In this document: one piece after another, positions 29,856 to 43,394 of the stretch
Layout of the letters: the number at the start of each line of letters is the position of its first letter
How positions within the stretch are numbered: position 1 is the stretch's first letter
DNA from: a virus
Direction: 5' to 3' (one strand)
DNA length: 64,000 bases
IMG/VR virus record: IMGVR_UViG_3300045988_183727
Translations under genes and position numbers: made by a program
Notes under the pieces: model-generated
Seen by the model: only the letters and a program-made list of their open reading frames with translations
Database searches by the model: none
Told to the model about the DNA's origin: nothing

Positions 29856-29992
29856 GAAAAAGACAATCACTGCCCGAAAAGGGAAGTGATTGTCTGAATT
29901 TATGATGTGACTTGAAAAACGGAGATAAAACTCCTTATAAAAATATCTTCGTAATTATACTATTATACTACCACGTTTCGCTATTTTGTCAA
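29856..29992 (-). promoter_or_regulatory. Promoter-leader-terminator cassette 1
   Basis: Minus strand: TTGACA (29992-29987), 16 nt, TAGTAT (29970-29965), then TATAAT-like (29959-29954), GGAG-n6-CTCC GTTTTT, and the terminator AGACAATCACTTCCC/GGGCAGTGATTGTCT + T5 (29895-29856). Confidence 0.75.
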
Positions 29993-30004
29993 CAGCAGCA
30001 ACGT

Positions 30005-30035
30005 AAAAAAAGAAGCTCCCGAAGGAGCTTCTTTT
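30005..30035. terminator. Bidirectional terminator ending the upstream (-) operon
   Basis: A6 agaagctcc cgaa ggagcttct TTT. Confidence 0.75.
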
Positions 30036-30061
30036 GAAATTTAGTTTTTTTTATCTTGCTT

Positions 30062-30703
30062 TTAGCATTCCCTTTTAACCATGCGCTCCTGATACTCCTT
30101 CAGAACCCTTTGGCCGCACCCATCAGCGTCGTTGCGATAATCCAAGGAAAACGCTGCGAAGGCGTCTCGCAGTACGGCGGCGCTTCTGGAAATGGTCTGG
30201 AGCAGTTCATCTTCCTGATGGCTCATTGCGGAGAGCGTGTTGTCGAAATCATCATGGTACTGAGCCGTCCAAGCGGTCGTAAATGTACCATCATCATCCC
30301 AAATCCACAAAGGGTCATTATGCTGCCCTTTTGCCTTGTAGAGTATATCCGTGCAATGTGACACATGGACGATATACTCGCACAGCGCAAAGTACAACTC
30401 GTGGTACGCTTTGATGGATTTCTGCTTACTCTCACAGTCGCTGTGGAACAGAATACCGGAAATCAGGAGATGGGCGTAGTTCTGTTCAACGAAGCCGTAT
30501 AACTCAGCCAGTTCGCGCTTCCGCAGAACCAGTTCCGCCGCGTCTTGCGGCAGGTCAGACAGCTTCGGACGAACCTGTAAGGACGCACCCATCCCGACGA
30601 TTGCGGCAATGGCTTCAGCCGCTTTCTCATAGCGGTTGATATACAGAATGGTCTCTCTTATCTTCGGTATAACAAAATGGCGAATGTCGGAAGTATCCAG
30701 CAT
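30062..30703 (-). CDS. Hypothetical protein (213 aa)
   Basis: The internal ATG at 30703 follows aaggagggacaaacgaaa. The track N-terminal extension overlaps the upstream gene. Confidence 0.65.
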   Translation of the reverse strand: MLDTSDIRHFVIPKIRETILYINRYEKAAEAIAAIVGMGASLQVRPKLSDLPQDAAELVLRKRELAELYGFVEQNYAHLLISGILFHSDCESKQKSIKAYHELYFALCEYIVHVSHCTDILYKAKGQHNDPLWIWDDDGTFTTAWTAQYHDDFDNTLSAMSHQEDELLQTISRSAAVLRDAFAAFSLDYRNDADGCGQRVLKEYQERMVKREC

Positions 30704-30728
30704 TTTCGTTTGTCCCTCCTTTCGTGGC

Positions 30729-31775
30729 TTAAATGGCGCAAGTAAATGTGTCATTGCAGCCAGACTTTTCCGTCTCTTTTTCCCATGCCTCAGTAATCTT
30801 GTTGCTGGGAGCGCCGGATGCCTTCTTCCATACAATAGCATCACCGCTGACTTCCAGCGCATCATCGCAAAAGACAAGCGAATTAAAGGTATGCTCGTCT
30901 TCATAGAGTGCCAAATGCATCGGGTTCAGCATGACTGCGCCTTCCGTCAGCAGCATACGGGCCCAGAGCTGGTATTCAAGCGACCAGCGGGACGTTTCTG
31001 TCGGCAGGTCGCCATACAGCTCGTCCAGCTTTCGCAGGATGGAGGCGCAAATCACGCAGCCTGCGGGAGTTCCGTGATGCGTACCGAGATACGGCAGCTT
31101 GGCGAAGAATAGGGGACTCTCAGCATACTCGTCTTCCGCATAGGCGTAAAACGTTAGCTCCATGTCCGCTGCTGCGAAGAACCGGTCGGGAAGGATATCC
31201 TTCACTTTACAGTTGCTCCAGACAACATCATCCGAAAGGAATCTGAAGCCAAGAGGCTCCGTCCTATCAGGTGTGAGGTACTTCCGTGCCATATGTCGGA
31301 CGAGGGCAACGAAACCCAGCTCATGCCGCAGCGTCGGCACATCGTCAAAGATTCTGTGAATGTTTGCCCACAGCTTCTCTTCGCTTCGTTCCACGCACTC
31401 GAAAAAGAGTTTGCAGGACGACCCGTGTGTGAAAGCGACACTCAGGGTCACGAGCCAAGGTGCGAAATCATCAGGCTTCAGAACATACTCTTTCTGCCCA
31501 GTACAGGCGACCGGCACAAACCAACCACCCGCACGAGCTTCGCTATACGAAGCGTCCTCCGCAGCATAGGCGGTTGTTCTGAAGGCATCGTCGGTGTCCT
31601 TATCAGGAATATCAATGGCATCGCCCTTGCAGATATACTTGAAGGGGACATACATTTCCACCTCTCTAATGCCGTCGCCATCTGCATCATCCGTATCACG
31701 GCAGTAACGCACGATATGGACCAATACGTTCTCGTCGCAATGCAGCTTTCGCTTGTTCGAAATCAGATTATCCAT
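30729..31775 (-). CDS. Hypothetical protein, paralogue of 31793-32830
   Basis: ATG at 31775 follows AAAGGAGAA; the track TTG lies inside the RBS. Both paralogues contain the FFAKLP motif and share a near-identical EYQLWARMLL(T/A)EGAVMLNP block. Confidence 0.7.
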   Translation of the reverse strand: MDNLISNKRKLHCDENVLVHIVRYCRDTDDADGDGIREVEMYVPFKYICKGDAIDIPDKDTDDAFRTTAYAAEDASYSEARAGGWFVPVACTGQKEYVLKPDDFAPWLVTLSVAFTHGSSCKLFFECVERSEEKLWANIHRIFDDVPTLRHELGFVALVRHMARKYLTPDRTEPLGFRFLSDDVVWSNCKVKDILPDRFFAAADMELTFYAYAEDEYAESPLFFAKLPYLGTHHGTPAGCVICASILRKLDELYGDLPTETSRWSLEYQLWARMLLTEGAVMLNPMHLALYEDEHTFNSLVFCDDALEVSGDAIVWKKASGAPSNKITEAWEKETEKSGCNDTFTCAI

Positions 31776-31792
31776 GTTTTCTCCTTTCAACG

Positions 31793-32830
31793 TCAGCCAG
31801 TTACGATGCAGGTAAAAGCCTCATCGCCGGACTCACTCATGTCATTCTCCCACGCCTCGGCGATTACGCTGATAGGTGTTTTGACAGCCTTTGCCCACGC
31901 AATACCGTCACCGCTGTCTTTCAGCATTTTATTACCGAAAGCCAGCGTTTTGAATTCGTAGGCGCAGTCGGGGAGGTCGAGGTGCTTCGGATTCAGCATG
32001 ACCGCACCTTCTGCCAGCAGCATACGAGCCCAAAGCTGATACTCCAGAGCCCATTTTGTTGTGTCTTCAGGCAGGTCGCCGTACATCTCATCCAGCTTCT
32101 GCAGCAGTTCTGCGATTGCAGCACGTCCCTCAGGCTTGTTGTACCGTTCGCCCAAATCGGGCAGTTTGGCAAAGAACAGGGGGGACGCTGAATACTCGCC
32201 GTCGGAATAGGCGAAGAACGTCAGCTCCATGGCAGGGGAATTGAAGAACTTCTCAGAGAGAATGTCCTTCACACCGCACTGGGTGAAGTTTACGCTGTCC
32301 GAAATGAGGCGGAAGCCGAACTGCTCCGTCCACTCGCGGGTAAGGTCTCTCTTCGCCATGGCCGCAACCGTGTCAGAATGCCGCCCGCAGGTGTTTTCCG
32401 GAGCCACACGCGGCTCGAATCTCGCCCGCATATTGTTGACGATAGCTTCAGTATCGTTGAGGACACTCTCAAAAAGCAGCCGGCAGCCGCGCCAATCTCC
32501 TTCGTCGGTGACGGAAAGGCTGATGATATAGGGCGCAAAATCTGCAGGATGGAGAATCAATACCGTCTTGCCAGCATCCTCAGTGACCTTAACAGACCAG
32601 CCGCACTCATTCCCGTATCGCTCGTCCTTCTCGAAAGAAGCATTTGTGAGAACGGAAAAGTGCAGTTCGTGACCGTCGCTGAAGACGCTCACAGAATCGC
32701 TCTTGCGGATGTCCTTGAAAGGAACGAATGTGGTCTCGAATCTGTCGTGCTTAGGGTTGTTGCGGGAGACCTTAACCAGCGTGTTCTCGTCGCAGAAAGC
32801 TGCGGCGGCTTTGATAGATACATTGTTCAT
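31793..32830 (-). CDS. Hypothetical protein, paralogue of 30729-31775
   Basis: The internal ATG at 32830 follows aaaggagaaaaat. Collinear similarity to the downstream gene. Confidence 0.7.
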   Translation of the reverse strand: MNNVSIKAAAAFCDENTLVKVSRNNPKHDRFETTFVPFKDIRKSDSVSVFSDGHELHFSVLTNASFEKDERYGNECGWSVKVTEDAGKTVLILHPADFAPYIISLSVTDEGDWRGCRLLFESVLNDTEAIVNNMRARFEPRVAPENTCGRHSDTVAAMAKRDLTREWTEQFGFRLISDSVNFTQCGVKDILSEKFFNSPAMELTFFAYSDGEYSASPLFFAKLPDLGERYNKPEGRAAIAELLQKLDEMYGDLPEDTTKWALEYQLWARMLLAEGAVMLNPKHLDLPDCAYEFKTLAFGNKMLKDSGDGIAWAKAVKTPISVIAEAWENDMSESGDEAFTCIVTG

Positions 32831-32895
32831 ATTTTTCTCCTTTCTTTTTTGGGAAAGCAGGGGAGAGGCAGAGTGCCTCTCCCGCTGGCTTTGAT

Positions 32896-33063
32896 TTAAC
32901 CGGTTATGACCGCCACAATAACCAAAACAATGGTGAGCGCAATAGTACCAAAGGCAGCCGGAAGCATTTCTGGCTGGTCTGATTTTTTTGCGGCTATGAC
33001 TGAGACGACCATTGCGGCGATGATGAGAACGACATAGGCTATAAACAAGGGGTTCGTCAGCAT
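32896..33063 (-). CDS. Small two-TM membrane protein (55 aa)
   Basis: MLTNPLFIAYVVLIIAAMVVSVIAAKK...IALTIVLVIVAVITG. Confidence 0.5.
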   Translation of the reverse strand: MLTNPLFIAYVVLIIAAMVVSVIAAKKSDQPEMLPAAFGTIALTIVLVIVAVITG

Positions 33064-33083
33064 TTTGAACACGTCCTTCTCCG

Positions 33084-33245
33084 TTAATACCACCGAACAA
33101 GTGCGAACAGTTCCACCATAATAACGCCCACAGAAACGCTGCAGACGATTGGCGGCAAGAGGTCCTGTGTGTCCAGTCTCCTTATGCCAAGGAATATGCC
33201 GCACATCACGAGAATGGTCAGAGCGAAGTAAAGAATAATCGACAT
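33084..33245 (-). CDS. Small two-TM membrane protein (53 aa)
   Basis: MSIILYFALTILVMCGIFLGIRR...VSVGVIMVELFALVRWY. Confidence 0.5.
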   Translation of the reverse strand: MSIILYFALTILVMCGIFLGIRRLDTQDLLPPIVCSVSVGVIMVELFALVRWY

Positions 33246-33250
33246 TAGAG

Positions 33251-33892
33251 TTACTCCACCTCGCTCTTTTCCAGCTCGGAAAGGTTGTCGCATTCAAATC
33301 CGCAGGTCATGCAGTGATATGGACCGTAGGGGTCAGACGACTCGTAGATGTTAGATTCGATTTCGTCGTTGATATTTCCGAGGAAATCTCCCGTTTCGAT
33401 GTCAACCAACACATCAATGTGGAGGACCTGATGACCAGAGAAAGATACGCCACCACAGTTGGGGCAGCAGCGGGTATACACCTTCTGCTCCCGCTCTGAT
33501 GCACCAGATTCGATGTCTTCAAACGCTTCGGCGAGTGTGAGAAGCATCTCATTGATTTCCTTGGCGTCCTCGACAAGCACTGACAGTTTCGGAACGCCTG
33601 ACGTGCCCTTTACGGAAGCCTCCGCAAACAGAGCGACGTGCTCGTCAACGTCGAAGTCCTCGTAGACGCGGCGCACAGCAGCGGCTACTCCATCGCCGAA
33701 ATCATCGTCGGCGTACAGGTCGAAGGAGTAGTCCTCGCCGGCAGGCGACCCCTGTCTGAACGTGAACACACCACAGACCTTGTCCTCGTCGATGACCCAG
33801 CCCAACGCTTCTGCCTTTTCGCGGTAGTTGGCCGGAAGCAGGTCAGGAACACTGGTCTGGACCTCCGCAGCGTTTTTTTGGTTATTCTCCAT
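33251..33892 (-). CDS. Hypothetical acidic protein with a C-terminal zinc ribbon (213 aa)
   Basis: The internal ATG at 33892 follows aaaggagaaaatc. Contains CCPNCGG...CMTCGFEC. Confidence 0.65.
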   Translation of the reverse strand: MENNQKNAAEVQTSVPDLLPANYREKAEALGWVIDEDKVCGVFTFRQGSPAGEDYSFDLYADDDFGDGVAAAVRRVYEDFDVDEHVALFAEASVKGTSGVPKLSVLVEDAKEINEMLLTLAEAFEDIESGASEREQKVYTRCCPNCGGVSFSGHQVLHIDVLVDIETGDFLGNINDEIESNIYESSDPYGPYHCMTCGFECDNLSELEKSEVE

Positions 33893-33914
33893 GATTTTCT
33901 CCTTTCTTTTTTCG

Positions 33915-34694
33915 TTAGGCTTCGGCGCCGAACACCTTTTTGCAGATAGAGTGAATAGCCACGAACTGTTCCTGAAGCTGTGCCGGCACAAGGGAGATGG
34001 AGAGACCGGCATCACGCCATACACTATGGCCTGCGAATGCTTTGTCCCACAGTTCTCCACGTTCGTGCTGGGCCTCCAAGAGCCTCTCATAGCGTTCTTC
34101 TTCCGTCTTTGCAGCGCCAATGTACTGCCGTGTGTACTCGTTGAAGTCTGAAATATTCATCTCCGTCTGGTCGGTGTACTCAAAGCGGGGATATTGGGAG
34201 TCGATGAAAGGGGCCGCTTCTCTGGTGAGATTGAACCCTTTCATGTAGGTACTGCCATTATCGCCCCTGAGGAACAGCAGTGACGCCTGCCAATCACGGG
34301 AGACGATTTCGTAGATTTCAGTGATAACGTCGAGCAGATTTCTCTTCTGCTCTACTGTCAATGAAATCTTCCGTTTCTGCGCCTCCTTCTGCAGAATCTG
34401 TTCCGCAGAGCTTTTGGCGCTATCCGTCATCGTAAAAGACGGCGTCCAGTCGTACATCAGAACACACTTATGGACGACGTTTGCGGCGATTGAAGCAAAA
34501 ACAGGTCTGAGCTCCTCAATATCCTCTACAGACTTCTTGGCGAAGATGATGGCGAGCTGGCAGAAATCGAGCGAGTTGTAGACAGCGTCCACAAAGGACT
34601 TCTGCTGCACTTCCCGAATCTCACTGCCGAGCTTGACCAACTCCCCGATGTCGGTAGAGTTGATGCGCCAAGCATCAAAGATTTTTGTGCTCAT
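33915..34694 (-). CDS. Hypothetical protein (259 aa)
   Basis: ATG at 34694 overlaps the upstream stop (ATGA). RBS aaggaagg. Confidence 0.65.
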   Translation of the reverse strand: MSTKIFDAWRINSTDIGELVKLGSEIREVQQKSFVDAVYNSLDFCQLAIIFAKKSVEDIEELRPVFASIAANVVHKCVLMYDWTPSFTMTDSAKSSAEQILQKEAQKRKISLTVEQKRNLLDVITEIYEIVSRDWQASLLFLRGDNGSTYMKGFNLTREAAPFIDSQYPRFEYTDQTEMNISDFNEYTRQYIGAAKTEEERYERLLEAQHERGELWDKAFAGHSVWRDAGLSISLVPAQLQEQFVAIHSICKKVFGAEA

Positions 34695-35059
34695 TTCAGG
34701 CACCCGCCTTCCTTGAGAATGTCCATGACCTTCTCCAACACGGTCAACGGGGCGTTGAAGCCGAAGTCGCCAACGGCTCTGCGAAGAGCCATGAGCAATT
34801 CCGCCTGCCGGTGATAGTCCTTGGCAGCCTGTTCCGTCTGATACAGCCGGTAATCTGTACTCCAGTACATGGAGTTTTGCTGGAAGTAGGGATTTCTGTT
34901 CGCATCTTCGGAAGGAGCCTTGTAGTATCGACAGTCTCTATTGTCTGTCAGCCACTTGGTTCCAACCTTGACCGTGACCTCATCCACCACCTTTCCGTGC
35001 CGCCGTTCGGCATTACTACCGATAATAGGTACGCGGTAGAGTCTCATCTCAGTGGCCAT
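34691..35059 (-). CDS. Hypothetical protein, tandem paralogue Y2 (122 aa)
   Basis: About 75% identical to the N-terminal 105 aa of 35049-35501. Confidence 0.65.
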   Translation of the reverse strand: MATEMRLYRVPIIGSNAERRHGKVVDEVTVKVGTKWLTDNRDCRYYKAPSEDANRNPYFQQNSMYWSTDYRLYQTEQAAKDYHRQAELLMALRRAVGDFGFNAPLTVLEKVMDILKEGGCLK

Positions 35060-35501
35060 TGTTCTTACTCCTTTCTTCGTCTGTCAGCCCACCATCCACA
35101 GCCATGTCCATCAGCGTATTGAAGACGCTGGTGAGACGCTGTGCGAACGGGGTGTATTTCAGCGTATCCATGACCTTCTCCAGCACAGGCAGGGGAGCGT
35201 TGAAGCCGAAATTGCTCACCGCCCTGCAAAGCGCCACACGCAGTTCCGCTTGCCGAAGGTAATCCTTGGCGGTCTGCTCTGTCTGATACAGTCGGTAGTC
35301 CATGCAGTACATGGTGTTGAGCTGGAAGTAAAGGTTTCGGTTTGCGTCCTCAAGCGGCACCTTGTAGTAGCGACGACCGTTATCGTCCGTCAGCCACTTG
35401 GTTCCGACCTTGACTGTGACCTCATCCACCACTTTTCCACGCTGCCTCTCGGCATTGCTGCCGACAACCGTTACGCGGTAAAGTCTCATCTCAACAGCCA
35501 T
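35049..35501 (-). CDS. Hypothetical protein, tandem paralogue Y1 fused to an X-like C-terminus (150 aa)
   Basis: The N-terminus resembles 34691-35059. The C-terminal YTPFAQRLTSVFNTLMDMAVDGGLTDEERSKNNGH nearly equals the C-terminus of 35491-35700. Confidence 0.65.
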   Translation of the reverse strand: MAVEMRLYRVTVVGSNAERQRGKVVDEVTVKVGTKWLTDDNGRRYYKVPLEDANRNLYFQLNTMYCMDYRLYQTEQTAKDYLRQAELRVALCRAVSNFGFNAPLPVLEKVMDTLKYTPFAQRLTSVFNTLMDMAVDGGLTDEERSKNNGH

Positions 35502-35700
35502 TGTTCTTGCTCCTTTCTTCGTCCGTCAGCCCGCCATCCACAGCCATGTCCATCAGTGTATTGATGACGCTGGTTAGACGCTGTGCGAACGGGGTGTAGG
35601 GGTTCGACAACTCACTGCGGCGCTCCATCAGAATCGCCATAGCAAACTTAGCGTCATTGACGCTCTTCAGCTCTTCGATTGTCCAGCGATGCTTACTCAT
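35491..35700 (-). CDS. Hypothetical small protein X (69 aa)
   Basis: ATG with overlapping operon organisation. Its C-terminus is duplicated in the downstream gene. Confidence 0.6.
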   Translation of the reverse strand: MSKHRWTIEELKSVNDAKFAMAILMERRSELSNPYTPFAQRLTSVINTLMDMAVDGGLTDEERSKNNGC

Positions 35701-36005
35701 GCTCTTTCACCCCCTTCCATAACAGGCCGGTCGGCATAAGCCGACTGCAACGCGAACTCCATAGCGGAGATGACCTGTGCGATTGAGGGCGTAGGCTTAC
35801 TCAAATCGCGGGCATATCCGCACCTGTCGTTCAGGTGGGTAGTCAGGGTGTCCCTGACCTTTCCCTGTATTCCCGTTATTTCCAGCAGCCGCCTCAGAGC
35901 GTCGTTGACGTCTTTTGCGGGCAACTTCTTGCGGGGGTGGAACAACAACTCGTTCCGATACTGAGACAATGTGCTGTCAATAAAGTGCAGCGAAGATGTA
36001 TCCAT
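35697..36005 (-). CDS. Hypothetical protein (102 aa)
   Basis: ATG with RBS agaaaggagaataaa. Confidence 0.6.
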   Translation of the reverse strand: MDTSSLHFIDSTLSQYRNELLFHPRKKLPAKDVNDALRRLLEITGIQGKVRDTLTTHLNDRCGYARDLSKPTPSIAQVISAMEFALQSAYADRPVMEGGERA

Positions 36006-36020
36006 TTTATTCTCCTTTCT

Positions 36021-36197
36021 CTAAATCTGCTTGTAAGGCCCAAGTGTGATAGACAGGTTGTAGATATAATTACCACAACGCACACATTCGTCGTTCTTTC
36101 CCCACAAGCCGCTTGCTTTCATACCGCGCACGCTGCCTGTATAATGGATAGACGGGTGTGTATCGCACTCGTGCTGGGTAAGCTCCTTTTGTTTCAT
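36021..36197 (-). CDS. Small hypothetical protein (58 aa; below the ORF-track cutoff)
   Basis: My own translation is MKQKELTQHECDTHPSIHYTGSVRGMKASGLWGKNDECVRCGNYIYNLSITLGPYKQI. RBS aaaggagtaaacgc. It is the first gene after cassette 2. Confidence 0.5.
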   Translation of the reverse strand: MKQKELTQHECDTHPSIHYTGSVRGMKASGLWGKNDECVRCGNYIYNLSITLGPYKQI

Positions 36198-36235: not shown

Positions 36236-36368
36236 AAAAAGACAGTCGTTCCCAAATGAGAACAACTGTCTTGAATATGATGATGTGACTGAAAACGGAG
36301 ATAAATCTCCTTATAAAAATATCTTCGTAATTATACTACTATACTACCACAATTCTTTATAATGTCAA
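36236..36368 (-). promoter_or_regulatory. Promoter-leader-terminator cassette 2
   Basis: TTGACA (36368-36363), 16 nt, TAGTAT (36346-36341), TATAAT-like (36335-30), GGAGATTTATCTCC GTTTTC, and the terminator AAGACAGTTGTTCTC/GGGAACGACTGTCTT + T5 (36272-36236). Confidence 0.75.
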
Positions 36369-36413: not shown

Positions 36414-36421
36414 AGTTAAGG

Positions 36422-36946: not shown

Positions 36947-37246
36947 TCAATGCAGTCCGTGGAGCTTTTTCCACTGGGCCTTGTCCATCCAAGGTCCGTC
37001 AAAGCTGTCGTCCACACACTCTGTTCTGAGACAGTTAGGGCAGACGAGACAGTCCACAGCCCGCCGGACACGACCGGTCTTGAACCGCACACCATGTTGG
37101 ATGATTTCTTCCTCCTCCACGAAGTAGCTCGGTTCAAGCTCGCAGCCACAGGTGCCGCAGATGCCAAACGGGTTTGCATTGGACTCGTAGGTGCCGTTCT
37201 GTTTTTGGATATTCTCCTGAATCACTGCATGGTAATCCGTCGCCAT
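36947..37246 (-). CDS. Small zinc-ribbon protein (99 aa)
   Basis: Contains CGTCGC...CLVCPNC. Confidence 0.6.
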   Translation of the reverse strand: MATDYHAVIQENIQKQNGTYESNANPFGICGTCGCELEPSYFVEEEEIIQHGVRFKTGRVRRAVDCLVCPNCLRTECVDDSFDGPWMDKAQWKKLHGLH

Positions 37247-37983
37247 CAGAACTTCACCTCCTCAAATTCAATGACCCATACCCACGGGTTTCCGGCCCAC
37301 TTTGACAGGGCCTTGTGTTCGGGAATCGTGCTGTCCCACAGCTCGATAAACTTCTCCTGAAGGGACATGGTGTTCTCGCCGGAGGTACTGTCACAGGTGA
37401 TGCCCTCCTTAGTGAAGTCCTCGTCCTTCATGTCATTCAAATGTTCCAACCGCACATCCGTCACACGCAGGAAAATGCGTGCCGCCTCTTTGGGCATATG
37501 AATGGACGGTGTCCAGTGAATGAGGGAACTCACCTCAGGGGAGTTTTTCAAATCCTCATCCGAATAATCGGCCTTATAGAGCCAGCGGTTCTCGGCGCAG
37601 GCACAGGTCGTTTCGCGAACATACAGGACGTCTCCCTTGTCAAACGGAGCACAGAAGCTGCGAATGACGGTGTTCTCATCAGCGAAAGCGGCCACGAGAC
37701 GTCCGTCTCCGTCGCGATACAGTCCATCCACTTTCTTTCCCGCGAAGTGAAACGCACCACGGCGTGTTACCATCTTGCGCCCCTCGCGGATGGCACGTAC
37801 CATCTCGCCGTTGAACAGGATAGGCTTCGGCTTCTTGTCCTTGAAGATGTCGGGGTCAAAATGGATGCCGGCTTTCTCGCGCAGTTCCTTGCAACGAGAG
37901 CCACGATAGATGTCTGTGTCGCACTCTTTGACAGGACAATGTGAGAGGCAGATTCGCCGCTCATAAGGTTCCTTTCTGGGCAT
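37246..37983 (-). CDS. Hypothetical protein, ASCH-like N-terminal core
   Basis: KPILFNGEMVRAIREGRKMVTRR resembles the ASCH / phage morphogenetic-protein motif. The family call is tentative. Confidence 0.55.
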   Translation of the reverse strand: MPRKEPYERRICLSHCPVKECDTDIYRGSRCKELREKAGIHFDPDIFKDKKPKPILFNGEMVRAIREGRKMVTRRGAFHFAGKKVDGLYRDGDGRLVAAFADENTVIRSFCAPFDKGDVLYVRETTCACAENRWLYKADYSDEDLKNSPEVSSLIHWTPSIHMPKEAARIFLRVTDVRLEHLNDMKDEDFTKEGITCDSTSGENTMSLQEKFIELWDSTIPEHKALSKWAGNPWVWVIEFEEVKF

Positions 37984-38011
37984 ATGTTTTTTCTCCTTTC
38001 TTTTCCGGGGG

Positions 38012-38464
38012 TCACTCGTATTCCTGACAACAAAGGTCGTAGACCTTATGCAGCGCAGCTAACGCCGCCTCAGGAATATCCTGAGTGTCCATATCAAACC
38101 ATTCGCCGAGCAATCCGGTAACATCTCCAAGAAACAGGAACTCGTCGAACACTTCCGACGGCGTACCGGAACCTTTTTTGCTTACCTTGCGCCGCTTATG
38201 TGGTGCAGTTCCGCGACAGGCATCCAGTGCGTCCTGCAGGAGCGATATCGCACCCTTGGGAATTTCACCGGTATCCATTTTCAGCCAATTCGCCAGAGTC
38301 TCGATAACATCATCGAGGAACACATAATTGCACTCGCAGATAATTCTCGCCATCTGCAAGTGTCGAATTGCGTCCGTTGGGATGTCGTTAATGTCACACT
38401 CGGTGAGTTGTCTCTTCAGGTTCTTTACAACCTCATCGCGGGACAAAACCTTGTTTCTTCCCAT
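38012..38464 (-). CDS. Hypothetical protein with three internal repeats (150 aa)
   Basis: The repeating unit is (D/T)xxDIPxxA(I/L)xxLxxA. Confidence 0.6.
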   Translation of the reverse strand: MGRNKVLSRDEVVKNLKRQLTECDINDIPTDAIRHLQMARIICECNYVFLDDVIETLANWLKMDTGEIPKGAISLLQDALDACRGTAPHKRRKVSKKGSGTPSEVFDEFLFLGDVTGLLGEWFDMDTQDIPEAALAALHKVYDLCCQEYE

Positions 38465-38491
38465 GTTGTCTCCTTTCTTTTTTTGCGGATT

Positions 38492-39010
38492 TCAACTGCT
38501 CTGCCTCAGCGTATCAGGCACGGCACCGAAGCTCTGCGCGGCTGGGTAGGCGGGAGGGAAGGGGATAGCCCCTCCTCTCGCTACCTGAGCCACCACGAGG
38601 GTGCTAATGCCGCCAGAGGGCGTTTTGTATTGCTGAACGCTTGGCGTGTAGAGAAACCCATCTACCGCTTGTCTCACGGTCATTGTGGGGTATTTTGGCG
38701 CCCGCCAACGATGCTCCTTAGAATAGTAGATTTCCCTGACCCGACACGTTGCAACTGTGACGGGAATGAGGGGATTGTCTACCGTATGTTCACACACGAT
38801 GGCGATAGATGTCTTTCCAATTCTGGAAGCATCCTCCACCATGCGCTGGAGCGCGAGTCTCTGACCATAAGGCATTGCGGCATTACGATGCTTCACCTCA
38901 AAGAAAACATACCCCTTGTCGTGATACTCAATGAGTCCGTCGATGTCGGTAGGATAACAGTTACCCTTGTTTTCAATAGTCATGCCCGTGAAGCTGACGA
39001 GCTGTTTCAT
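38492..39010 (-). CDS. Hypothetical protein, possible PD-(D/E)xK fold (172 aa)
   Basis: The internal ATG is at 39010. TDIDGLIEY...VFFEVKH suggests a D...ExK motif. Tentative. Confidence 0.5.
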   Translation of the reverse strand: MKQLVSFTGMTIENKGNCYPTDIDGLIEYHDKGYVFFEVKHRNAAMPYGQRLALQRMVEDASRIGKTSIAIVCEHTVDNPLIPVTVATCRVREIYYSKEHRWRAPKYPTMTVRQAVDGFLYTPSVQQYKTPSGGISTLVVAQVARGGAIPFPPAYPAAQSFGAVPDTLRQSS

Positions 39011-39071
39011 CCTTGCGGGAAATCTAATGTAGTCCTTCCTCACGGGAGCCTCCTTTCTGCAGGCATCCCCC

Positions 39072-39404
39072 TCAGCGGGGGATGCCTTTGCCGTTTTTGA
39101 GCATGGAAATGACTTTTGCGGCCAAGAAATCGTCGGCCACAAACTGGTTATAGCCGTTTTTCAGACCGTTGCTGGAGAAATCCTCTGTGTCCTTGGCATA
39201 GCGGCACATGGATTTGTCGGAAATAGGTCCATAGCAAGAGTGCTCGGTGGTTACATAGACGCAACTCTCTCTGCAAGTCACGAAGCCAGAGCAGCCGCGC
39301 TTCTGTCCGTTGACTGTGATGTTCTTCAGGTGCGTGGTAATGTCCATGCCCATCTGTTCTGCCAAAGAGGTAAGTCCGTTTTTCAGCTTTACAGAAAGCA
39401 ACAT
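39072..39404 (-). CDS. Hypothetical protein (110 aa)
   Basis: The internal ATG at 39404 follows aaaggcggtgtaaga. Confidence 0.55.
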   Translation of the reverse strand: MLLSVKLKNGLTSLAEQMGMDITTHLKNITVNGQKRGCSGFVTCRESCVYVTTEHSCYGPISDKSMCRYAKDTEDFSSNGLKNGYNQFVADDFLAAKVISMLKNGKGIPR

Positions 39405-39406
39405 TC

Positions 39407-40159
39407 TTACACCGCCTTTCTTTCTACCCAGACATCGCCCAACTTGGCGCACTCGCCGTGGTAAGGGCAGTCGTGATAGGTTTCGCAACCCTCATCAACG
39501 AAGGTCTGGCAGGTGCCACAGTCCAAATTGTGATGCAGAAGACGCTGGATAACATCCCGCGCATTTTCGGTCTCTACCGCGAGGTAGGAAAAAGCTCTCG
39601 CCTTGACGCTTGCATCGTACTCATCCGTGTAGTAGAGGGAAGACGCACAGAGAACCTTTGCGCCGAACACACGGCGGCACTCCTCATCGGAGAGCATTTC
39701 ACCGGCAAACGGGAAAAGACCGCGTCTGCCTCTGAGCTGGTTGCTGACGTGTGTGTGCGCGTTCTTTGCCAACTTAACGCCCTCACGAGCCTCATCCAGT
39801 GTGTCGAAGGACAACGCACACACATCCACAAGAGAACCTTCGCCGATAGGGGAGTGGTTCACAAAAAGCATCGCGTATCTTCTGCTGGGAAGGGTTGCAG
39901 TTCTCGCTGCATCCTCGCCTTCGAGACACACGTAACGCGCCACTTTGTCGTCCCACACATACTTCTCACAGGAGGTGCAGGTGTTCTCTGCCTTATCACA
40001 TCCGGATTTCGACGCAACGACCTTCAGCTCGGCTGCTTTTTTTTCTGCCTCGCACTTATCCACAGCGGCAAAGCACACTTTTCGTCCCTTTTCCTCATCG
40101 AAACGATAGTGCTCACATAACGCACAGGAACCAGCAGGCTTTTCACAGATATATGCCAT
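39407..40159 (-). CDS. Cys-rich hypothetical protein (250 aa)
   Basis: The internal ATG at 40159 follows gagaaaggagaaaaat. It has multiple CxxC pairs at both termini and is the first gene after cassette 3. Confidence 0.65.
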   Translation of the reverse strand: MAYICEKPAGSCALCEHYRFDEEKGRKVCFAAVDKCEAEKKAAELKVVASKSGCDKAENTCTSCEKYVWDDKVARYVCLEGEDAARTATLPSRRYAMLFVNHSPIGEGSLVDVCALSFDTLDEAREGVKLAKNAHTHVSNQLRGRRGLFPFAGEMLSDEECRRVFGAKVLCASSLYYTDEYDASVKARAFSYLAVETENARDVIQRLLHHNLDCGTCQTFVDEGCETYHDCPYHGECAKLGDVWVERKAV

Positions 40160-40222: not shown

Positions 40223-40355
40223 AAAAAGACAGTCGTTCTCAAAAGAGAACAACTGTCTTGAATGTGATGATGTGACTGAAAACGGAGACAAAGCTCCTTA
40301 TAAAAATATCTTCGTAATTATACTACTATACTACCACATTTCCTTATAATGTCAA
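40223..40355 (-). promoter_or_regulatory. Promoter-leader-terminator cassette 3
   Basis: TTGACA (40355-40350), 16 nt, TAGTAT (40333-28), TATAAT-like, GGAGCTTTGTCTCC GTTTTC, and the terminator AAGACAGTTGTTCTC/GAGAACGACTGTCTT + T5 (40259-40223). The post-terminator 5'UTR is shared with cassette 1. Confidence 0.75.
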
Positions 40356-40412: not shown

Positions 40413-41372
40413 TCACGCTTCTACGTAAACTGGTTTAAGATACTGTGCGCTGAGAAATTTGCCTCGCAAGGAAGAAATCTTTGCCTCAGCGTCTTTCTCA
40501 CTGATAAACCTCTGAGCATCATCCACGGAGGACGTGTACTGGAGGTTGTTCTTCACGGATTTCTTCACATACTTCCCTGCGTATGCCTTTTCCGTACACA
40601 TAACGACATAGGGCCGAGGCGCCGTCATCTTGCGCGTTACGGTCTTGAACTCAAGTCCCATTACGCTGATAACCTCTCCCATTGCTGCCGTAGCTGCTTC
40701 CGCAGACGGGTAGTGAATGGCATCTCTGACATCCTTTGTGAAATGCACAGTTATTCTTCCAATCACATTATCAAATGCACGCACATAGCCCGCGTTGCGC
40801 TTTTGAACTACAAGCGGACCCTTTACATCCCGCGCTCTGGCAGGTCGCAGGCGCTCGCCGCGCTGTGTTCCGCTGAACGACATGAAGATGTAGTGGTCCT
40901 TGTGTTCTTTTACCAGTTCCCGTGCCTCATCCAGCCAGACTTCCAGCTCATCCGTTGTTCTGACATACCTCCACAGCAGATGGTCGCCGGACGTATAGGG
41001 CATCAGCCCTACATTCAGGTCGTTGACGCCGGGATTGGCGGCGAGGATGTCCTCCAGCGTGGCGGCATCCTTTGCGGCGCGAGCAAACCATTTCCGTGCC
41101 TGAGAGCAAGTGACCCACTTGCTGTTCATCTTCCAGCACTCATCATCGGTGTCGGGGAAGGTGGTATTCACCTTCGCCACAAATTCGTCCTCAGGAAGTT
41201 CCAGAAGATTGATTCCTCCCAGCAAGAACCAGTGGCGCTCGCGAACCTCTCGCGGCTTGAAATTCCTGTCGTAGATGAACTCGGAGCAGTTGTTGCTGCC
41301 ACCCAAGGCAAGGGGAATGATACCACGAGTTGTCTTGATGAAAGAGCGGGCATCAATGATAGTGTATCCCAT
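40413..41372 (-). CDS. Hypothetical protein (319 aa)
   Basis: ATG at 41372 follows aaaggagatgtaaaa. Confidence 0.65.
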   Translation of the reverse strand: MGYTIIDARSFIKTTRGIIPLALGGSNNCSEFIYDRNFKPREVRERHWFLLGGINLLELPEDEFVAKVNTTFPDTDDECWKMNSKWVTCSQARKWFARAAKDAATLEDILAANPGVNDLNVGLMPYTSGDHLLWRYVRTTDELEVWLDEARELVKEHKDHYIFMSFSGTQRGERLRPARARDVKGPLVVQKRNAGYVRAFDNVIGRITVHFTKDVRDAIHYPSAEAATAAMGEVISVMGLEFKTVTRKMTAPRPYVVMCTEKAYAGKYVKKSVKNNLQYTSSVDDAQRFISEKDAEAKISSLRGKFLSAQYLKPVYVEA

Positions 41373-41388
41373 TTTTACATCTCCTTTC

Positions 41389-41658
41389 TTACATCTCGCC
41401 ATCCTCGGCAGCGGTTATAATACCGAATCTGAGGTTGTTGTTGATGTCGTAGATACTTAATCCGCTATCAAAGTCCTTGCGGAGCTGCGTCGCAGCGGCC
41501 TCTACGGAGTCTTCGCCGTACTCAAACGTCTCGGACTCGACGCAGGTTGCCACAAGCTCCTTCAGCTTTGCGCGGGAAGTCGTCGCAGAAACCAGACGCA
41601 TAGAGTCTGTTGCTTTCCAAGCGTCACAGGCAAACACGATGAAGATAGGATTACTCAT
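41389..41658 (-). CDS. Hypothetical protein (89 aa)
   Basis: The internal ATG at 41658 overlaps the end of the upstream gene. Confidence 0.55.
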   Translation of the reverse strand: MSNPIFIVFACDAWKATDSMRLVSATTSRAKLKELVATCVESETFEYGEDSVEAAATQLRKDFDSGLSIYDINNNLRFGIITAAEDGEM

Positions 41659-42229
41659 TTTCGGCTTGCTCCTTTCTTCTTCCAACGGTGGCTGCGGGGT
41701 ACGGTGTGGCCCGCTTGTTGTTGCTGTCCATGATTCGCATAACATGGACAAGCATCTCGGAATATGCCCTGTGCATGGTTTCATACCGCGCACGCCATGT
41801 ATTATCATCATTGTCGTTCACGCGAGCACTCAGCCCCATGCTGTAGTACAGCGCGGCGTCGATGTCTACCAGCTCCGCTTCAGTCAGGTGGCAGATATAG
41901 GCTCCCAGCTCATTGACAGAAACTGCCATCGGCTGCTCGCACAGTGCTGTGCTGGGGCGGCTCGTGCTCGTGATGAGTACATGGGAGGGCTGCTGCATCT
42001 TTGGAGATGATGTCGTAAATACGACCTCCACTACACTGCTGTAGCGGTTCAGGTCATCCGAAGATACAACGATTGCGGGACGATGCCCTCTGATAACAGA
42101 GCTATTGGAAGGATGTCCGTCTTTATCGCGGAACTGGCTTCCTTCCGGGGCCCAAGGGGAAAAGATTTCGATTTCTTTCGCATTGACCCAAAAAACATCG
42201 CCCCTGCGGATGTTTCCATTTCTACCCAT
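41651..42229 (-). CDS. PemK/MazF-family toxin-like protein with a ~70-aa C-terminal extension
   Basis: RRGDVFWV...GHRPAIVVSSDDLN...VVEVVFTTSS...PSHVLI...STALCEQPMAVSVNELG matches the MazF/PemK pattern. Confidence 0.7.
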   Translation of the reverse strand: MGRNGNIRRGDVFWVNAKEIEIFSPWAPEGSQFRDKDGHPSNSSVIRGHRPAIVVSSDDLNRYSSVVEVVFTTSSPKMQQPSHVLITSTSRPSTALCEQPMAVSVNELGAYICHLTEAELVDIDAALYYSMGLSARVNDNDDNTWRARYETMHRAYSEMLVHVMRIMDSNNKRATPYPAATVGRRKEQAENE

Positions 42230-42437
42230 AGATTCTTGTCTCCTTTCCTTCAGAATTGGTTACACACGACGGAATGCCGAAAAAAGACAGAACCGCTTTA
42301 AGCGGCTCTGTCTCCATGCAGTCGATATGACACTGTTTGTTTTCGTAGGGTGCCTCGACAAATTCTTCGCCAACCTCAATGGGTTCGTGGCAAATGCAGC
42401 ATTCGCCGGCGTAACGAATTTCCTTTTTTGCTTTCAC
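42222..42437 (-). CDS. Small Cys-containing protein (71 aa), candidate cognate antitoxin by position only
   Basis: GTG start after aaaggag. Overlaps the MazF-like start by 8 nt. Confidence 0.5.
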   Translation of the reverse strand: MKAKKEIRYAGECCICHEPIEVGEEFVEAPYENKQCHIDCMETEPLKAVLSFFGIPSCVTNSEGKETRIYG

Positions 42438-42458
42438 AATGAATTTACTCCTTTCTTT

Positions 42459-42662
42459 TCAAAGTTGCCGAGACAGTGTTACGGCTGCCTGCTGGCGTCG
42501 TCTTTCGCAGTTTCTTCGCTGCACTTCGATAGCTTCGCGAGCCTCCGCAATACACTGCTTCGCACGCCTATCCTGTTCAGAAGAGAAAGATGCGTAGCGC
42601 TCAGAGTAGACGGAATCCATACGCTCGGCTCTCTCAATTAACTCATACAGCGGTGTAGACAT
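42459..42662 (-). CDS. Small hypothetical protein (67 aa)
   Basis: ATG with RBS gaggaggag. Confidence 0.55.
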   Translation of the reverse strand: MSTPLYELIERAERMDSVYSERYASFSSEQDRRAKQCIAEAREAIEVQRRNCERRRQQAAVTLSRQL

Positions 42663-42678
42663 AGCTTCTCCTCCTCGT

Positions 42679-42951
42679 TTATTGAATGTTCATGCCTACG
42701 GCGCGAGGACCTTCTTTGGACCAAGTTTCCTTGAGCCAGTGATAGGTGATTGTGCTATCTTCGGGACTCTTGTCTGGGTAGCAGGGAAGGTATGCTGCGG
42801 AGTACAAGTCTCTGCACTGACTGAAGTACACATGATTCCAGTCAGCCCACACATCACCAAGAGAACGGATAGCTCGCTTGAACGACCGAAAGCTCTGTGG
42901 CGTGTGAACTACGATGGCATTTGCTCCGTTCCACTTTCCATTCCACATCAT
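42679..42951 (-). CDS. Hypothetical protein (90 aa)
   Basis: ATG overlapping the upstream stop. Confidence 0.55.
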   Translation of the reverse strand: MMWNGKWNGANAIVVHTPQSFRSFKRAIRSLGDVWADWNHVYFSQCRDLYSAAYLPCYPDKSPEDSTITYHWLKETWSKEGPRAVGMNIQ

Positions 42952-43217
42952 TGCACTTCACCTCCCTGATACGTCGGGCGGCTGCGTCTGTTACGGAACG
43001 GAGGCATCACCGGTGCGGTGTAGCTGGTCAGCTCACCCGTCATTTTGACAGGCACACACTGGAGCAATCCGCGCTGTTTTCGATACTGGTGAGCCAAGTT
43101 GTTGCGAGCCTGTTTCTCAGAAACCGCCATAGTCGTCCCGCCCCACTTATTTGTGGTAATGTCGTCATAGACACGAACGGGTCCGAGATAGCTGAAAACC
43201 ATTTTTGCCTGTGCCAT
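42948..43217 (-). CDS. Hypothetical protein (89 aa)
   Basis: ATG follows aagaaaggagaaaacaca. It is the first gene after cassette 4. Confidence 0.6.
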   Translation of the reverse strand: MAQAKMVFSYLGPVRVYDDITTNKWGGTTMAVSEKQARNNLAHQYRKQRGLLQCVPVKMTGELTSYTAPVMPPFRNRRSRPTYQGGEVQ

Positions 43218-43262
43218 TGTGTTTTCTCCTTTCTTATTGTGTTGTAATGTAAAAAAATATAT

Positions 43263-43394
43263 AAAAAGACAGCTATCCCTGTCTTGGGATAACTGTCTTG
43301 AATACTTGGTGTGACTGGAAGCGGAGATAAGTCTCCTTATAAAAATATCTTCGTAATTATACTATTATACTACCACAATTATTTATAATGTCAA
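43263..43394 (-). promoter_or_regulatory. Promoter-leader-terminator cassette 4
   Basis: TTGACA (43394-43389), 16 nt, TAGTAT (43372-67), TATAAT-like, GGAGACTTATCTCC, and the terminator AAGACAGTTATCCC/GGGATAGCTGTCTT + T5 (43299-43263). Confidence 0.75.

What the first reader, a model, noticed from the sequence alone, without database searches (positions are those of the whole stretch)
29856..43394. Four near-identical promoter-leader-terminator cassettes heading consecutive minus-strand operons (lambda PR'/tR'-like logic)
The same module occurs at 29856-29992, 36236-36368, 40223-40355 and 43263-43394. It consists of TTGACA, 16 nt, and TG-n-TAGTAT, followed by a second -10-like TATAAT 5 nt downstream. 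It continues with the conserved CGAAGATATTTTTATAAGGAG-n6-CTCC-GTTTTC and GTCACATCATC..ATTCAAGACAG. It ends with a strong intrinsic terminator whose stem sequence differs between copies (AGACAATCACTTCCC, AAGACAGTTGTTCTC, AAGACAGTTATCCC) but always pairs and ends in T5. The first gene follows within ~40-70 nt. Each cassette is itself preceded by the terminator of the previous operon. A promoter, a promoter-proximal -10-like element and a terminator before the genes is the design of lambdoid late promoters, which need Q-type antitermination and produce a short 6S-like RNA. No antiterminator gene is recognisable. Alternatively the ~105-nt product is a multicopy sRNA.
Basis: partly seen in the sequence, partly recalled or inferred. 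Interest (0 to 1): 0.8.

Follow-up and report, generated by a model that had tools for sequence, protein, structure and literature searches.

The report
Repeated promoter-leader-terminator gates before operons
A roughly 190-kb conjugative DNA element from human-gut Clostridia places the same strong promoter, short conserved leader and transcription stop signal in front of at least 14 of its operons, which looks like one shared switch, with an unknown key, for turning those genes on together.

Summary
The four minus-strand cassettes are real (0 expected by chance). They belong to a family of over 200 copies in related 180-192 kb elements from human-gut metagenomes, with at least 14 co-oriented copies per element.

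Each copy has:
- a TTGACA / TRTG-extended TAGTAT promoter;
- a perfect second TATAAT 5 nt downstream;
- an invariant initial transcribed region;
- a GGAGN/N'CUCC hairpin;
- a 13-17 bp intrinsic terminator.

Eleven of the 15 terminator stem pairs covary. Genes follow 38-68 nt later with no other promoter.

The element is not a lambdoid phage. It carries T4SS, ParAB and RepL-like genes and inserts into host sigG through a serine recombinase. The gated operons hold conjugation, DNA-metabolism and establishment-type genes, not late genes.

No alternative antiterminator fold exists. No Q, N, NusG-paralog or ConAn1 gene was found among about 130 proteins scanned.

Best reading (about 0.5): a regulon-wide promoter-proximal gate that needs a factor acting on RNA polymerase or the leader. 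Q/AlpA-type loading at a sigma-dependent pause is the favoured sub-mechanism. Rivals are a fixed attenuator and a multicopy sRNA. I rate it a new variant of a known kind.

The parts
29857..29992 (-). Cassette c1. -35 at 29987-29992; -10 TAGTAT at 29965-29970; second TATAAT at 29954-29959; invariant 23-mer at 29931-29953; hairpin P1 at 29921-29934; terminator hairpin at 29861-29895; T-run at 29857-29861.
36236..36368 (-). Cassette c2. -35 at 36363-36368; -10 at 36341-36346; second TATAAT at 36330-36335; 23-mer at 36307-36329; P1 at 36297-36310; terminator hairpin at 36239-36272; T-run at 36236-36240.
40223..40355 (-). Cassette c3. -35 at 40350-40355; -10 at 40328-40333; second TATAAT at 40317-40322; 23-mer at 40294-40316; P1 at 40284-40297; terminator hairpin at 40226-40259; T-run at 40223-40227.
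43263..43394 (-). Cassette c4. -35 at 43389-43394; -10 at 43367-43372; second TATAAT at 43356-43361; 23-mer at 43333-43355; P1 at 43323-43336; terminator hairpin at 43266-43299; T-run at 43263-43267.
30004..30035 (-). End-of-operon terminator just upstream of c1. Equivalent terminators lie at about 36381-36410, 40368-40401 and 43406-43439.
   Evidence: a T-rich block at -50 to -44 is seen in most of the 135 unique copies
23247..29788 (-). Operon gated by c1: a 621-aa unknown protein, a DUF3232 protein, a VWA/CobT-like protein and an HD-domain protein.
30062..36197 (-). Operon gated by c2: eleven mostly unknown genes, including two paralogs with a weak ProQ_C-like hit.
36422..40159 (-). Operon gated by c3, from a zinc-finger-like 250-aa protein to a YopX protein.
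40413..43217 (-). Operon gated by c4: small basic proteins, a MazF/PemK-like toxin and a 329-aa protein.
53719..53795 (+). Leaderless mini-cassette. TTGACA, 16 nt, TAGTAT, AGAAT, TATAAG, then directly a 13-bp hairpin (53757-53787) and T6 (53790-53795). It heads the operon 53821-59937, which ends with the serine recombinase.
   Evidence: conserved in L258-L262
47771..47800 (-). Plain TTGACA-18-TATAAT promoter with no leader or terminator. It drives the RecG-like operon 43438-47725, the only operon in the minus-strand block 23-48 kb that is not gated.
29804..29831 (-). Second conserved 5'UTR motif, CCC(R)TAAGNCCTTATCACAGGCTGGGAG, just before the ribosome-binding site. It is also present at 40173-40200.
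   Evidence: 72 of 135 unique copies
61231..64000 (-). 3' part of a further cassette-gated operon (SSB-like to HD/TraI_2-like). Its cassette lies about 2.7 kb beyond the right end of the window.
   Evidence: L253 6570-6681

Best explanation
The cassette is a cis-regulatory gate that all major co-oriented operons of the element share.

Inferred sequence of events:
1. Host sigma-A RNA polymerase starts at a near-consensus promoter (TTGACA, 16 nt with a TRTG motif, TAGTAT).
2. It transcribes an invariant initial region that begins with a perfect second -10 hexamer.
3. It makes a small GGAGN/N'CUCC hairpin.
4. About 100 nt from the start it meets a long-stemmed intrinsic terminator.

By default most transcripts would end there, giving a roughly 100-nt RNA. 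The downstream operon is expressed only by read-through.

The leader has no alternative fold that could disrupt the terminator. Read-through must therefore be set by a factor that acts on the polymerase or binds the conserved leader or promoter DNA. One factor could then switch at least 14 operons together, including the conjugation operon.

The sub-mechanism I favour, at about 0.2 to 0.25 of the total, is Q/AlpA-like: a protein loads onto a sigma-dependent paused complex at the second hexamer. Next comes an N- or LoaP-like protein that recognises the hairpin.

Shown here: the anatomy, its conservation, the covariation, the absence of another promoter, and the absence of an alternative fold.
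Inferred only: termination in vivo, pausing, and the existence of a factor.
For: - Copy number and orientation: four copies in the window, 0 expected by chance. More than 200 copies in related contigs, all on one strand per contig. At least 14 copies, 3-8 kb apart, in the 192-kb contig 3300029310_000398.
- Promoter and initial region: in 135 unique copies, positions -13 to +17 are essentially invariant, including both hexamers, while the spacer, linker and terminator top vary.
- Terminator: every unique copy has one, with dG -15 to -24 kcal/mol, a 13-17 bp stem, U5-8, and a T-run starting 96-102 nt from the start of the covariance-model match (the A two nt before the second TATAAT).
- Covariation on 68 distinct sequences: the terminator helix is 97.5% paired and 11 of 15 pairs show compensatory changes. 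No shuffle out of 500 reached the observed score, and versions with the partner slid by 1-3 columns scored far lower.
- Hairpin P1: 97% paired, and the fifth pair switches from A-U to C-G in the diverged copies.
- No alternative structure: the nascent leader folds at -7.6 kcal/mol against -28.9 kcal/mol for the full leader with terminator, and the alternative pairings are inconsistent between copies.
- No other promoter: only 38-68 nt separate the terminator from the start codon and no sigma-A-like promoter lies there. A separate terminator precedes each cassette.
- The design matches the published Q cassette (10.1101/651190) and AlpA (PMC9371919).
- A leader hairpin followed by a terminator matches LoaP (PMC12691694).
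- Promoter-proximal attenuators and antitermination are common on Gram-positive conjugative elements (PMC8191782, PMC11658703, PMC13401043).
Against: - No antiterminator-type family was found among about 130 proteins scanned. That means no Q, no Phage_AlpA, no NusG/KOW and no PF17362. Only part of the element was covered, and Q-like proteins are not recognisable by sequence.
- The leader terminators have 13-17 bp stems. Stems of 14 bp or more resisted conAn-type processive antitermination in B. subtilis (PMC10325885).
- A fully processive factor would also read through the end-of-operon terminators, which would make per-operon cassettes redundant.
- The P1 loop is not conserved, unlike lambda boxB.
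- The mini-cassette has an imperfect second hexamer (TATAAG) and no leader.
- There are no expression data. Sigma-dependent pausing is established for E. coli sigma-70, not for Clostridia; that statement rests on my own knowledge.
- The copies come from closely related elements, so part of the invariance reflects shared ancestry.
Confidence: 0.5

Rival explanations
1. Fixed attenuator or insulator. The terminator is a constitutive partial stop that scales a very strong promoter down to a low, uniform level and blocks stray transcription. The conserved leader serves mRNA stability or processing, for example as a 5' structure or an SD-like stabiliser. No dedicated factor is involved.
For: - The U-tract is only 5 U followed by AUAUAU, a distal interruption typical of leaky or NusA-dependent terminators (PMC12691694).
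- AAGGAG lies near the 5' end with no start codon after it.
- Terminator-laden operons that damp spurious transcription are described for Gram-positive conjugative elements (PMC8955417, abstract seen).
- No regulator was found.
Against: - A weaker promoter would achieve low expression more simply.
- The AAGGAG is sequestered in P1.
- This reading does not explain the invariance of the second TATAAT and of +6 to +17.
- An upstream terminator already insulates each promoter.
Confidence: 0.2
2. Multicopy small RNA. The roughly 100-nt terminated transcript is itself the product. It is made from at least 14 strong promoters and acts in trans, for example by titrating a host or element RNA-binding protein. 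Operon expression by read-through is secondary.
For: - The 5' 65 nt are conserved, a terminator hairpin follows, and the length is tightly fixed.
- The lower stem AGACAG/CUGUCU and the 3' U-tail are conserved, as in RNAs bound by FinO/ProQ-type proteins; that comparison rests on my own knowledge.
- There is a weak, sub-threshold ProQ_C-like hit at 34691-35059.
Against: - Every copy sits in sense orientation directly in front of an operon that has no promoter of its own.
- No complementary target or antisense copy exists in the window (searched both strands).
- No Rfam family matches.
- The conserved part has very little structure.
Confidence: 0.15
3. DNA-level operator array. The conserved sequences are binding sites for a global repressor of the element. 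Candidates are the tandem TAGTATA repeats over the -10 region and the GGAGA-N3-4-TCTCC palindrome at about +30. The terminator is only a back-up lock.
For: - Direct and inverted repeats overlap the promoter and the early transcribed region.
- XRE-type HTH and LexA-type DNA-binding proteins are encoded in the cassette zone.
- XRE-like stretches occur in the 322-aa and 390-aa proteins just upstream of c4.
- A symmetric operator would also show paired changes of the kind seen in P1.
Against: - The palindrome spacing varies between 3, 4 and 6 nt, which suits an RNA loop better than a dimeric operator.
- This reading does not explain why the terminator is obligatory and strongly covarying.
- It is compatible with, rather than exclusive of, the best explanation.
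Confidence: 0.1

Closest known systems
Lambdoid Q cassette (PR', sigma-dependent pause element, tR') and Pseudomonas AlpA / PalpB-tB
   Same: A promoter, a -10-like hexamer at the start of the transcribed region, and an intrinsic terminator ahead of the genes, which yields a short terminated RNA by default (10.1101/651190; PMC9371919).
   Different: - At least 14 copies per element instead of one.
- Host is a Gram-positive Clostridium-type bacterium and the element is conjugative.
- The gated genes are not late or lysis genes.
- An additional conserved RNA hairpin is present.
- No Q- or AlpA-like gene was found.
- Pausing and a DNA binding element are not demonstrated.
LoaP (NusG paralog) with the dfn leader in Bacillus velezensis
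   Same: A Firmicute system in which a small leader RNA hairpin is followed by an intrinsic, NusA-dependent terminator that a dedicated factor overrides (PMC12691694).
   Different: No NusG/KOW protein was detected among about 130 proteins. This cassette is multicopy and sits on a mobile element, and its hairpin sequence is unrelated.
Lambda N/nut
   Same: A conserved linear segment plus a small hairpin in the nascent RNA upstream of a terminator, present at more than one operon.
   Different: The hairpin stem is conserved rather than the loop. No small arginine-rich N-like gene was identified. Here every operon has its own promoter and site.
conAn (pLS20 family), canT (Tn916) and zipper-type attenuators of Gram-positive conjugative elements
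   Same: Conjugative elements of Firmicutes that gate conjugation genes with terminators and antitermination or attenuation (PMC8191782, PMC11658703, PMC13401043). Here too a cassette heads the T4SS operon.
   Different: - Those RNAs are 260-600 nt (conAn2), about 340-450 nt (canT) or a 456-nt leader, and are single-copy.
- Here only about 60 nt precede the terminator.
- There is no ConAn1 (PF17362) hit.
- There is no zipper-like alternative fold.
HK022 put and Bacillus EAR cis-acting antiterminator RNAs
   Same: Promoter-proximal RNA elements that could license only those polymerases that started at the cognate promoter.
   Different: As I recall them, put has two structured stem-loops and EAR is a larger structured RNA. 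Here there is only one 4-5 bp hairpin, and Rfam gives no match.

Membership tests
Q / AlpA-type antitermination cassette | A promoter-proximal -10-like element (SDPE) in the initial transcribed region | tested here: met
   A perfect TATAAT lies 5 nt after the TAGTAT -10 hexamer. Each of its six positions is identical in at least 134 of 135 unique copies. This is sequence-level evidence only.
Q / AlpA-type antitermination cassette | RNA polymerase actually pauses with sigma bound at that element | not testable with these tools
   Needs in vitro transcription or NET-seq.
Q / AlpA-type antitermination cassette | An intrinsic terminator between the promoter and the regulated genes | tested here: met
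   All 135 unique copies have one, with dG -15 to -24 kcal/mol and U5-8. Eleven of 15 stem pairs covary.
Q / AlpA-type antitermination cassette | A DNA binding element for the antiterminator next to the pause element | tested here: inconclusive
   The invariant TTACGAAG(A/C)TAT lies just downstream of the second hexamer, but nothing ties it to a protein. The -35/-10 spacer is variable.
Q / AlpA-type antitermination cassette | A Q- or AlpA-like protein encoded by the element, classically just upstream | tested here: inconclusive
   No Q or AlpA Pfam family was hit among about 130 proteins. Only part of the element was scanned, and the Q families share no sequence similarity (PMC9371919).
Lambda N / nut | A boxB-type hairpin with a conserved loop, plus boxA | tested here: not met
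   The P1 stem GGAG/CUCC is conserved, but the loops vary: UUUA, UUA, GUA, AUAA, AAAA, AGAA and the hexaloops. No boxA-like sequence is present.
LoaP / NusG-paralog systems | A NusG paralog (NGN plus KOW domains) encoded with the target | tested here: not met
   No NusG or KOW hit among about 130 proteins. The scan covers only part of the element.
LoaP / NusG-paralog systems | A small leader hairpin upstream of a factor-dependent intrinsic terminator | tested here: met
   P1 followed by a terminator with U5 and a distally interrupted tract. NusA dependence is untested.
conAn (pLS20-type) | ConAn1 protein (Pfam PF17362) and a 260-600 nt conAn2 RNA | tested here: not met
   No PF17362 hit (same Pfam calls). 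Only about 60 nt precede the terminator (PMC8191782).
Riboswitch or zipper-type attenuator | Mutually exclusive antiterminator and terminator structures | tested here: not met
   The nascent leader folds at -7.6 kcal/mol against -28.9 kcal/mol for the full leader. Only 25% of 5'-arm bases pair in the alternative folds, and the pairings differ between copies.
Any Rfam family | A match at the family's gathering score | tested here: not met
   Only tRNAs in the window reach their gathering score. The best sub-threshold hit on a cassette is sbrA at 23 bits against a cut-off of 45, and it falls on the upstream terminator.

The most novel reading that the evidence does not exclude
This would be a genome-wide Q/AlpA-style, or hairpin-dependent, antitermination regulon in a Gram-positive host. 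One still-unknown factor would load at an identical promoter-proximal site in front of at least 14 operons of a roughly 190-kb, sigG-interrupting conjugative element. It would switch on conjugation, DNA-metabolism and establishment genes together. That would make it the first sigma-pause-loaded antitermination system outside Proteobacteria and a new family of antiterminator.
Probability: 0.2. Interest if true: 0.85.

Novelty: new variant of a known kind. Interest (0 to 1): 0.62.

Why it matters
If the gate is factor-controlled, it is a compact and portable unit of about 135 bp that places a whole 190-kb mobile element under one transcription-elongation switch. Known systems use one or two such sites per element; this one uses at least 14 identical sites.

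It would extend promoter-proximal, sigma-pause-type antitermination to Firmicutes and to conjugative elements of the human gut, and it would point to an unrecognised antiterminator family.

It is directly testable. The cassette is short, uses a consensus sigma-A promoter, and could be assayed in B. subtilis or in vitro.

It also gives a handle on how a very widespread but uncultured gut element controls transfer and establishment genes. The recombinase sequence is listed in 727 blocks of the assembly collection.

Tried and rejected
- Lambdoid or other phage identity. PHROGs and Pfam gave no structural, lysis or Q genes. No nucleotide match was found in GenBank phages or PLSDB. Instead I found T4SS, ParAB, RepL-like and sortase-pilus genes.
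- Leader peptide. No ATG, GTG or TTG follows the AAGGAG at a usable distance, and indels between copies break any reading frame.
- Second promoter between the terminator and the gene. Read by eye from the sequences: the TATATAT after the T-run has no usable -35 at 16-18 nt. The promoter scan of 23000-42999 lists only one weak 9-of-12 site in that interval (40189-40160, TTAACA-18-AAAAAT, before the c3 gene) and none before the c1 or c2 genes.
- Antisense or trans copy of the leader. Both strands were searched with up to 3 mismatches, and only the 4 cassettes were found.
- Outer helix P0 (GAAGAU/GUUUUC). Only 83% paired, and one pair is unpaired in 38 of 64 sequences, so it is not supported.
- Fixed-phase direct repeat UCAAGNCA. 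The linker length varies from 23 to 27 nt and my motif script failed, so this was not pursued.
- Host assignment. Two scans of one genome per GTDB species found no copy.
- Homologous cassette in the nearest cultured-host plasmid, Vescimonas pMM35_02. None was found.
- PDB sequence searches with four candidate proteins gave nothing.
- I did not run structure prediction. No candidate had a prior high enough to justify it.


Full report

Reading the four sites on the minus strand shows the same module each time. An alignment puts an almost invariant block from the -35 hexamer to about +45. The 23-mer TACGAAGATATTTTTATAAGGAG occurs exactly four times, against none expected in shuffles.

Each copy has this order:
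- the A-tract/hairpin/T-tract terminator of the previous operon;
- TTGACA;
- a 16-nt spacer ending in the Firmicute TRTG-type extended -10 motif;
- TAGTAT;
- 5 nt;
- a perfect TATAAT;
- TACGAAGATATTTTTATAA;
- a GGAG-loop-CUCC hairpin;
- a linker containing AGUCAC;
- a 14-15 bp hairpin with U5 followed by AUAUAU.

A ribosome-binding site and start codon follow 38-68 nt later. Single-sequence folding gives the small hairpin plus the terminator, with z-scores of -5.2 to -6.2. An HMM and a covariance model find no further full copy in the window.

**2. How widespread is it?**

The core 29-mer has exact matches in 77 stretches of IMG/VR contigs. A promoter-only pattern (TTGACA-N16-TAGTAT-N5-TATAAT) brings in further contigs of up to 192 kb that carry a second leader subtype. 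A looser pattern finds many human-gut metagenome contigs.

An HMM finds 206 copies in the IMG/VR loci. In every contig all copies lie on one strand. The 192-kb contig 3300029310_000398 has at least 14 copies, 3-8 kb apart. That is a lower bound, because only part of the contig is held.

GenBank phages, PLSDB plasmids and one genome per GTDB species contain no copy.

**3. What is conserved?**

In 135 unique copies the promoter and the first 17 transcribed bases are essentially invariant. This includes both -10-type hexamers. The -35/-10 spacer, the linker and the upper terminator stem vary.

Every unique copy keeps a terminator:
- dG from -15 to -24 kcal/mol;
- a T-run of 5-8;
- the T-run starting 96-102 nt from the start of the covariance-model match, which is the A two nt before the second TATAAT.

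The stems are 13-17 bp, and 51 distinct hairpins all pair.

I built a covariance model and searched 100 sources with it, which gave 146 hits, 68 of them distinct. Pair counts on that alignment were:
- Terminator helix: 97.5% of cells paired, 11 of 15 pairs with changes on both sides. No shuffle out of 500 reached the observed score, and the slid controls scored far lower.
- Hairpin P1: 97% paired. Its fifth pair changes from A-U to C-G in the diverged copies.
- Proposed outer helix GAAGAU/GUUUUC: not supported, at 83% paired.

One caveat applies. That alignment was fitted to the model, and the elements are closely related. Even so, paralogous cassettes within one element already differ throughout the upper stem.

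**4. What the leader is not.**

- Rfam gives only tRNAs at gathering score and nothing meaningful below it.
- There is no leader ORF.
- The nascent leader has no consistent alternative pairing that could sequester the 5' arm of the terminator (-7.6 against -28.9 kcal/mol). Riboswitch-type and zipper-type attenuation (PMC13401043) are therefore unlikely.
- No sigma-A-like promoter lies between the terminator and the gene (sequences, read by eye). The scan lists only one weak 9-of-12 site in that interval, before the c3 gene.
- No antisense copy exists in the window.

**5. What is the element?**

It is not a lambdoid phage. The window holds the following:
- the C-terminal 1587 aa of a TQ/SpaA adhesin;
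- a topoisomerase;
- two sortase-like genes;
- a TnpB;
- an RRXRR protein;
- a large serine recombinase;
- five tRNA genes;
- RecG-like, YopX, DUF1064, MazF-like, VWA and HD proteins.

Just left of the window, related contigs carry ParA, ParB, two RepL-like genes, two TrbC/VirB2-type pilins, a CHAP hydrolase and a VirD4/TraG-type coupling protein. A diverged cassette heads that operon.

Right of the window lie a YqaJ exonuclease, a RecD2-like helicase and an SSB-like operon that is headed by another cassette.

A further 58 ORFs were scanned: 45 from the cassette zone of contig 183785 and 13 remaining window ORFs. They add a DNA methylase, DUF3846, DUF4942, PBECR4, MazE, XRE-type and LexA-type DNA-binding proteins, and a radical-SAM protein.

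The nearest relatives of the primase-like protein sit on 120-250 kb plasmids of Clostridia and Oscillospiraceae.

In several metagenome contigs the element is integrated inside the host sigG gene, with a 98-aa N-terminal fragment at one end. NCBIfam matches that fragment to the SigG equivalog at E = 6e-49. The region-3/region-4 fragment lies directly after the recombinase at the other end. The window carries the joined, circular form.

The cassettes therefore gate conjugation, DNA-metabolism and establishment-type operons of a large conjugative, integrative, plasmid-like element.

**6. Mechanism.**

The anatomy means that the downstream genes can be transcribed only by polymerases that start at the cassette promoter and pass the leader terminator. 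The terminator has no built-in competitor structure. Read-through is therefore either a fixed leak or is set by a factor.

The region of strongest conservation runs from -13 to +17 and contains a perfect -10 hexamer at the transcription start. It coincides with what a sigma-dependent pause and loading site would need in the Q and AlpA systems (10.1101/651190; PMC9371919).

The conserved hairpin followed by a terminator with a distally interrupted U-tract resembles the LoaP target (PMC12691694).

I commit to a factor-dependent, regulon-wide read-through gate at about 0.5, with Q/AlpA-like loading as the leading sub-mechanism.

Points against this reading:
- No antiterminator-type family was found among about 130 proteins.
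- The stems are 13-17 bp, and stems of 14 bp or more resisted conAn antitermination (PMC10325885).
- A processive factor would make the end-of-operon terminators and the per-operon cassettes partly redundant.
- The P1 loop is variable.
- The leaderless mini-cassette at 53719-53795 has an imperfect second hexamer.

**7. Rivals.**

- A fixed attenuator or insulator (0.2).
- A multicopy sRNA (0.15).
- A DNA-level operator array for a global repressor (0.1), which could coexist with the gate.

None of these is excluded by sequence alone. Read-through measurements would separate them.

**8. Comparison with known systems.**

The cassette works like a Q/AlpA or LoaP target, but I do not file it as a member of any family:
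- The protein partner is missing.
- Pausing is untested.
- The features that define N/nut, conAn, put/EAR and canT were tested and not met.

What is new is the combination: a Firmicute host, a conjugative element, and at least 14 identical gates, one of which controls the T4SS operon.

**9. Verdict.**

I rate the finding a new variant of a known kind, with interest 0.62.

Noticed in passing
window 58360-61186 (attP core 60025-60052); L254/L255 13100-13510; L258-L262 5570-6170: The roughly 190-kb element is inserted inside the host sporulation sigma factor gene sigG by a large serine recombinase. A 98-aa N-terminal sigG fragment (NCBIfam SigG equivalog, E = 6e-49) flanks one end. A 161-164 aa region-3/region-4 fragment follows the recombinase at the other end, in at least three different host contexts. 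The window holds the excised, circular junction. This resembles the skin element in sigK, but sigG is forespore-specific and the element also carries plasmid replication and partition genes.
   Followed up: partly
window 53719-53795 (+): A leaderless mini-cassette. It has the same promoter type (TTGACA-16-TAGTAT-AGAAT-TATAAG), followed at once by a 13-bp hairpin and T6. It heads the operon that ends with the serine recombinase and is conserved in five other contigs.
   Followed up: partly
window 29804-29831 and 40173-40200 (-): A second portable 5'UTR motif, CCC(R)UAAGNCCUUAUCACAGGCUGGGAG, lies just upstream of the ribosome-binding site in 72 of 135 unique cassette copies. The genes that follow it are unrelated. 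It forms a weak hairpin of -4 to -7 kcal/mol, and one variant changes CCU/AGG to CCG/CGG.
   Followed up: partly
L127 7401-7521; L256 about 7200-7930; L078, L080, L095: A diverged cassette ortholog has P1 GGAGC-AAAA/AUAA-GCUCC and a GAGACC...GGUCUC terminator. It sits alone between divergent RepL-like genes and the T4SS operon (primase-like protein, TrbC x2, CHAP hydrolase, VirD4-like).
   Followed up: partly
window 43438-47800 (-): The RecG-like helicase operon is the only operon in the minus-strand block 23-48 kb with a plain TTGACA-18-TATAAT promoter and no leader or terminator. Its two downstream proteins (322 aa and 390 aa) have no family hit but contain XRE-like HTH-looking stretches. 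They are candidate regulators located just upstream of cassette c4.
   Followed up: partly
window 37-4800 (+); L256 1-1060: The window starts inside a 3789-aa TQ ester-bond/SpaA adhesin. It ends in VQTGD plus a membrane helix and a basic tail, not a canonical LPXTG. Two sortase-like genes lie at 54655-55455 and 57200-57973.
   Followed up: no
window 48300-48840 and 19630-19717 (+); 49044-50288 (+); 55660-57144 (+): The element carries five tRNA genes (Glu, Thr, Thr, Gly, Ser), an IS605-type TnpB and an RRXRR protein. The RRXRR gene is absent from the otherwise identical region in L258-L262, so it is a variable insertion.
   Followed up: no
window 34691-35059 and 35049-35501 (-): Two adjacent paralogous genes share an N-terminal domain (MA(T/V)EMRLYRV...). 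The first has a weak, sub-threshold hit to a phage ProQ C-terminal-like domain.
   Followed up: no
L252 (Vescimonas fastidiosa plasmid pMM35_02) 31700-31900 and 43900-44050: Upstream of the conjugation and pilus genes of this distantly related plasmid there are repeated sigma-54-like motifs (TGGCAC-N5-TTGC), each followed by a TG-extended TATACT and a terminator-like hairpin. This is a different repeated promoter-hairpin design on another Oscillospiraceae plasmid.
   Followed up: no
window 17150-17241 (-): A promoter of the same type (TTGACA-16-TAATAT) is followed by a GC-rich hairpin (GTCCCGCCACGG...CTGTGGCGGGAAC) and has no cassette leader. I did not examine what it drives.
   Followed up: no
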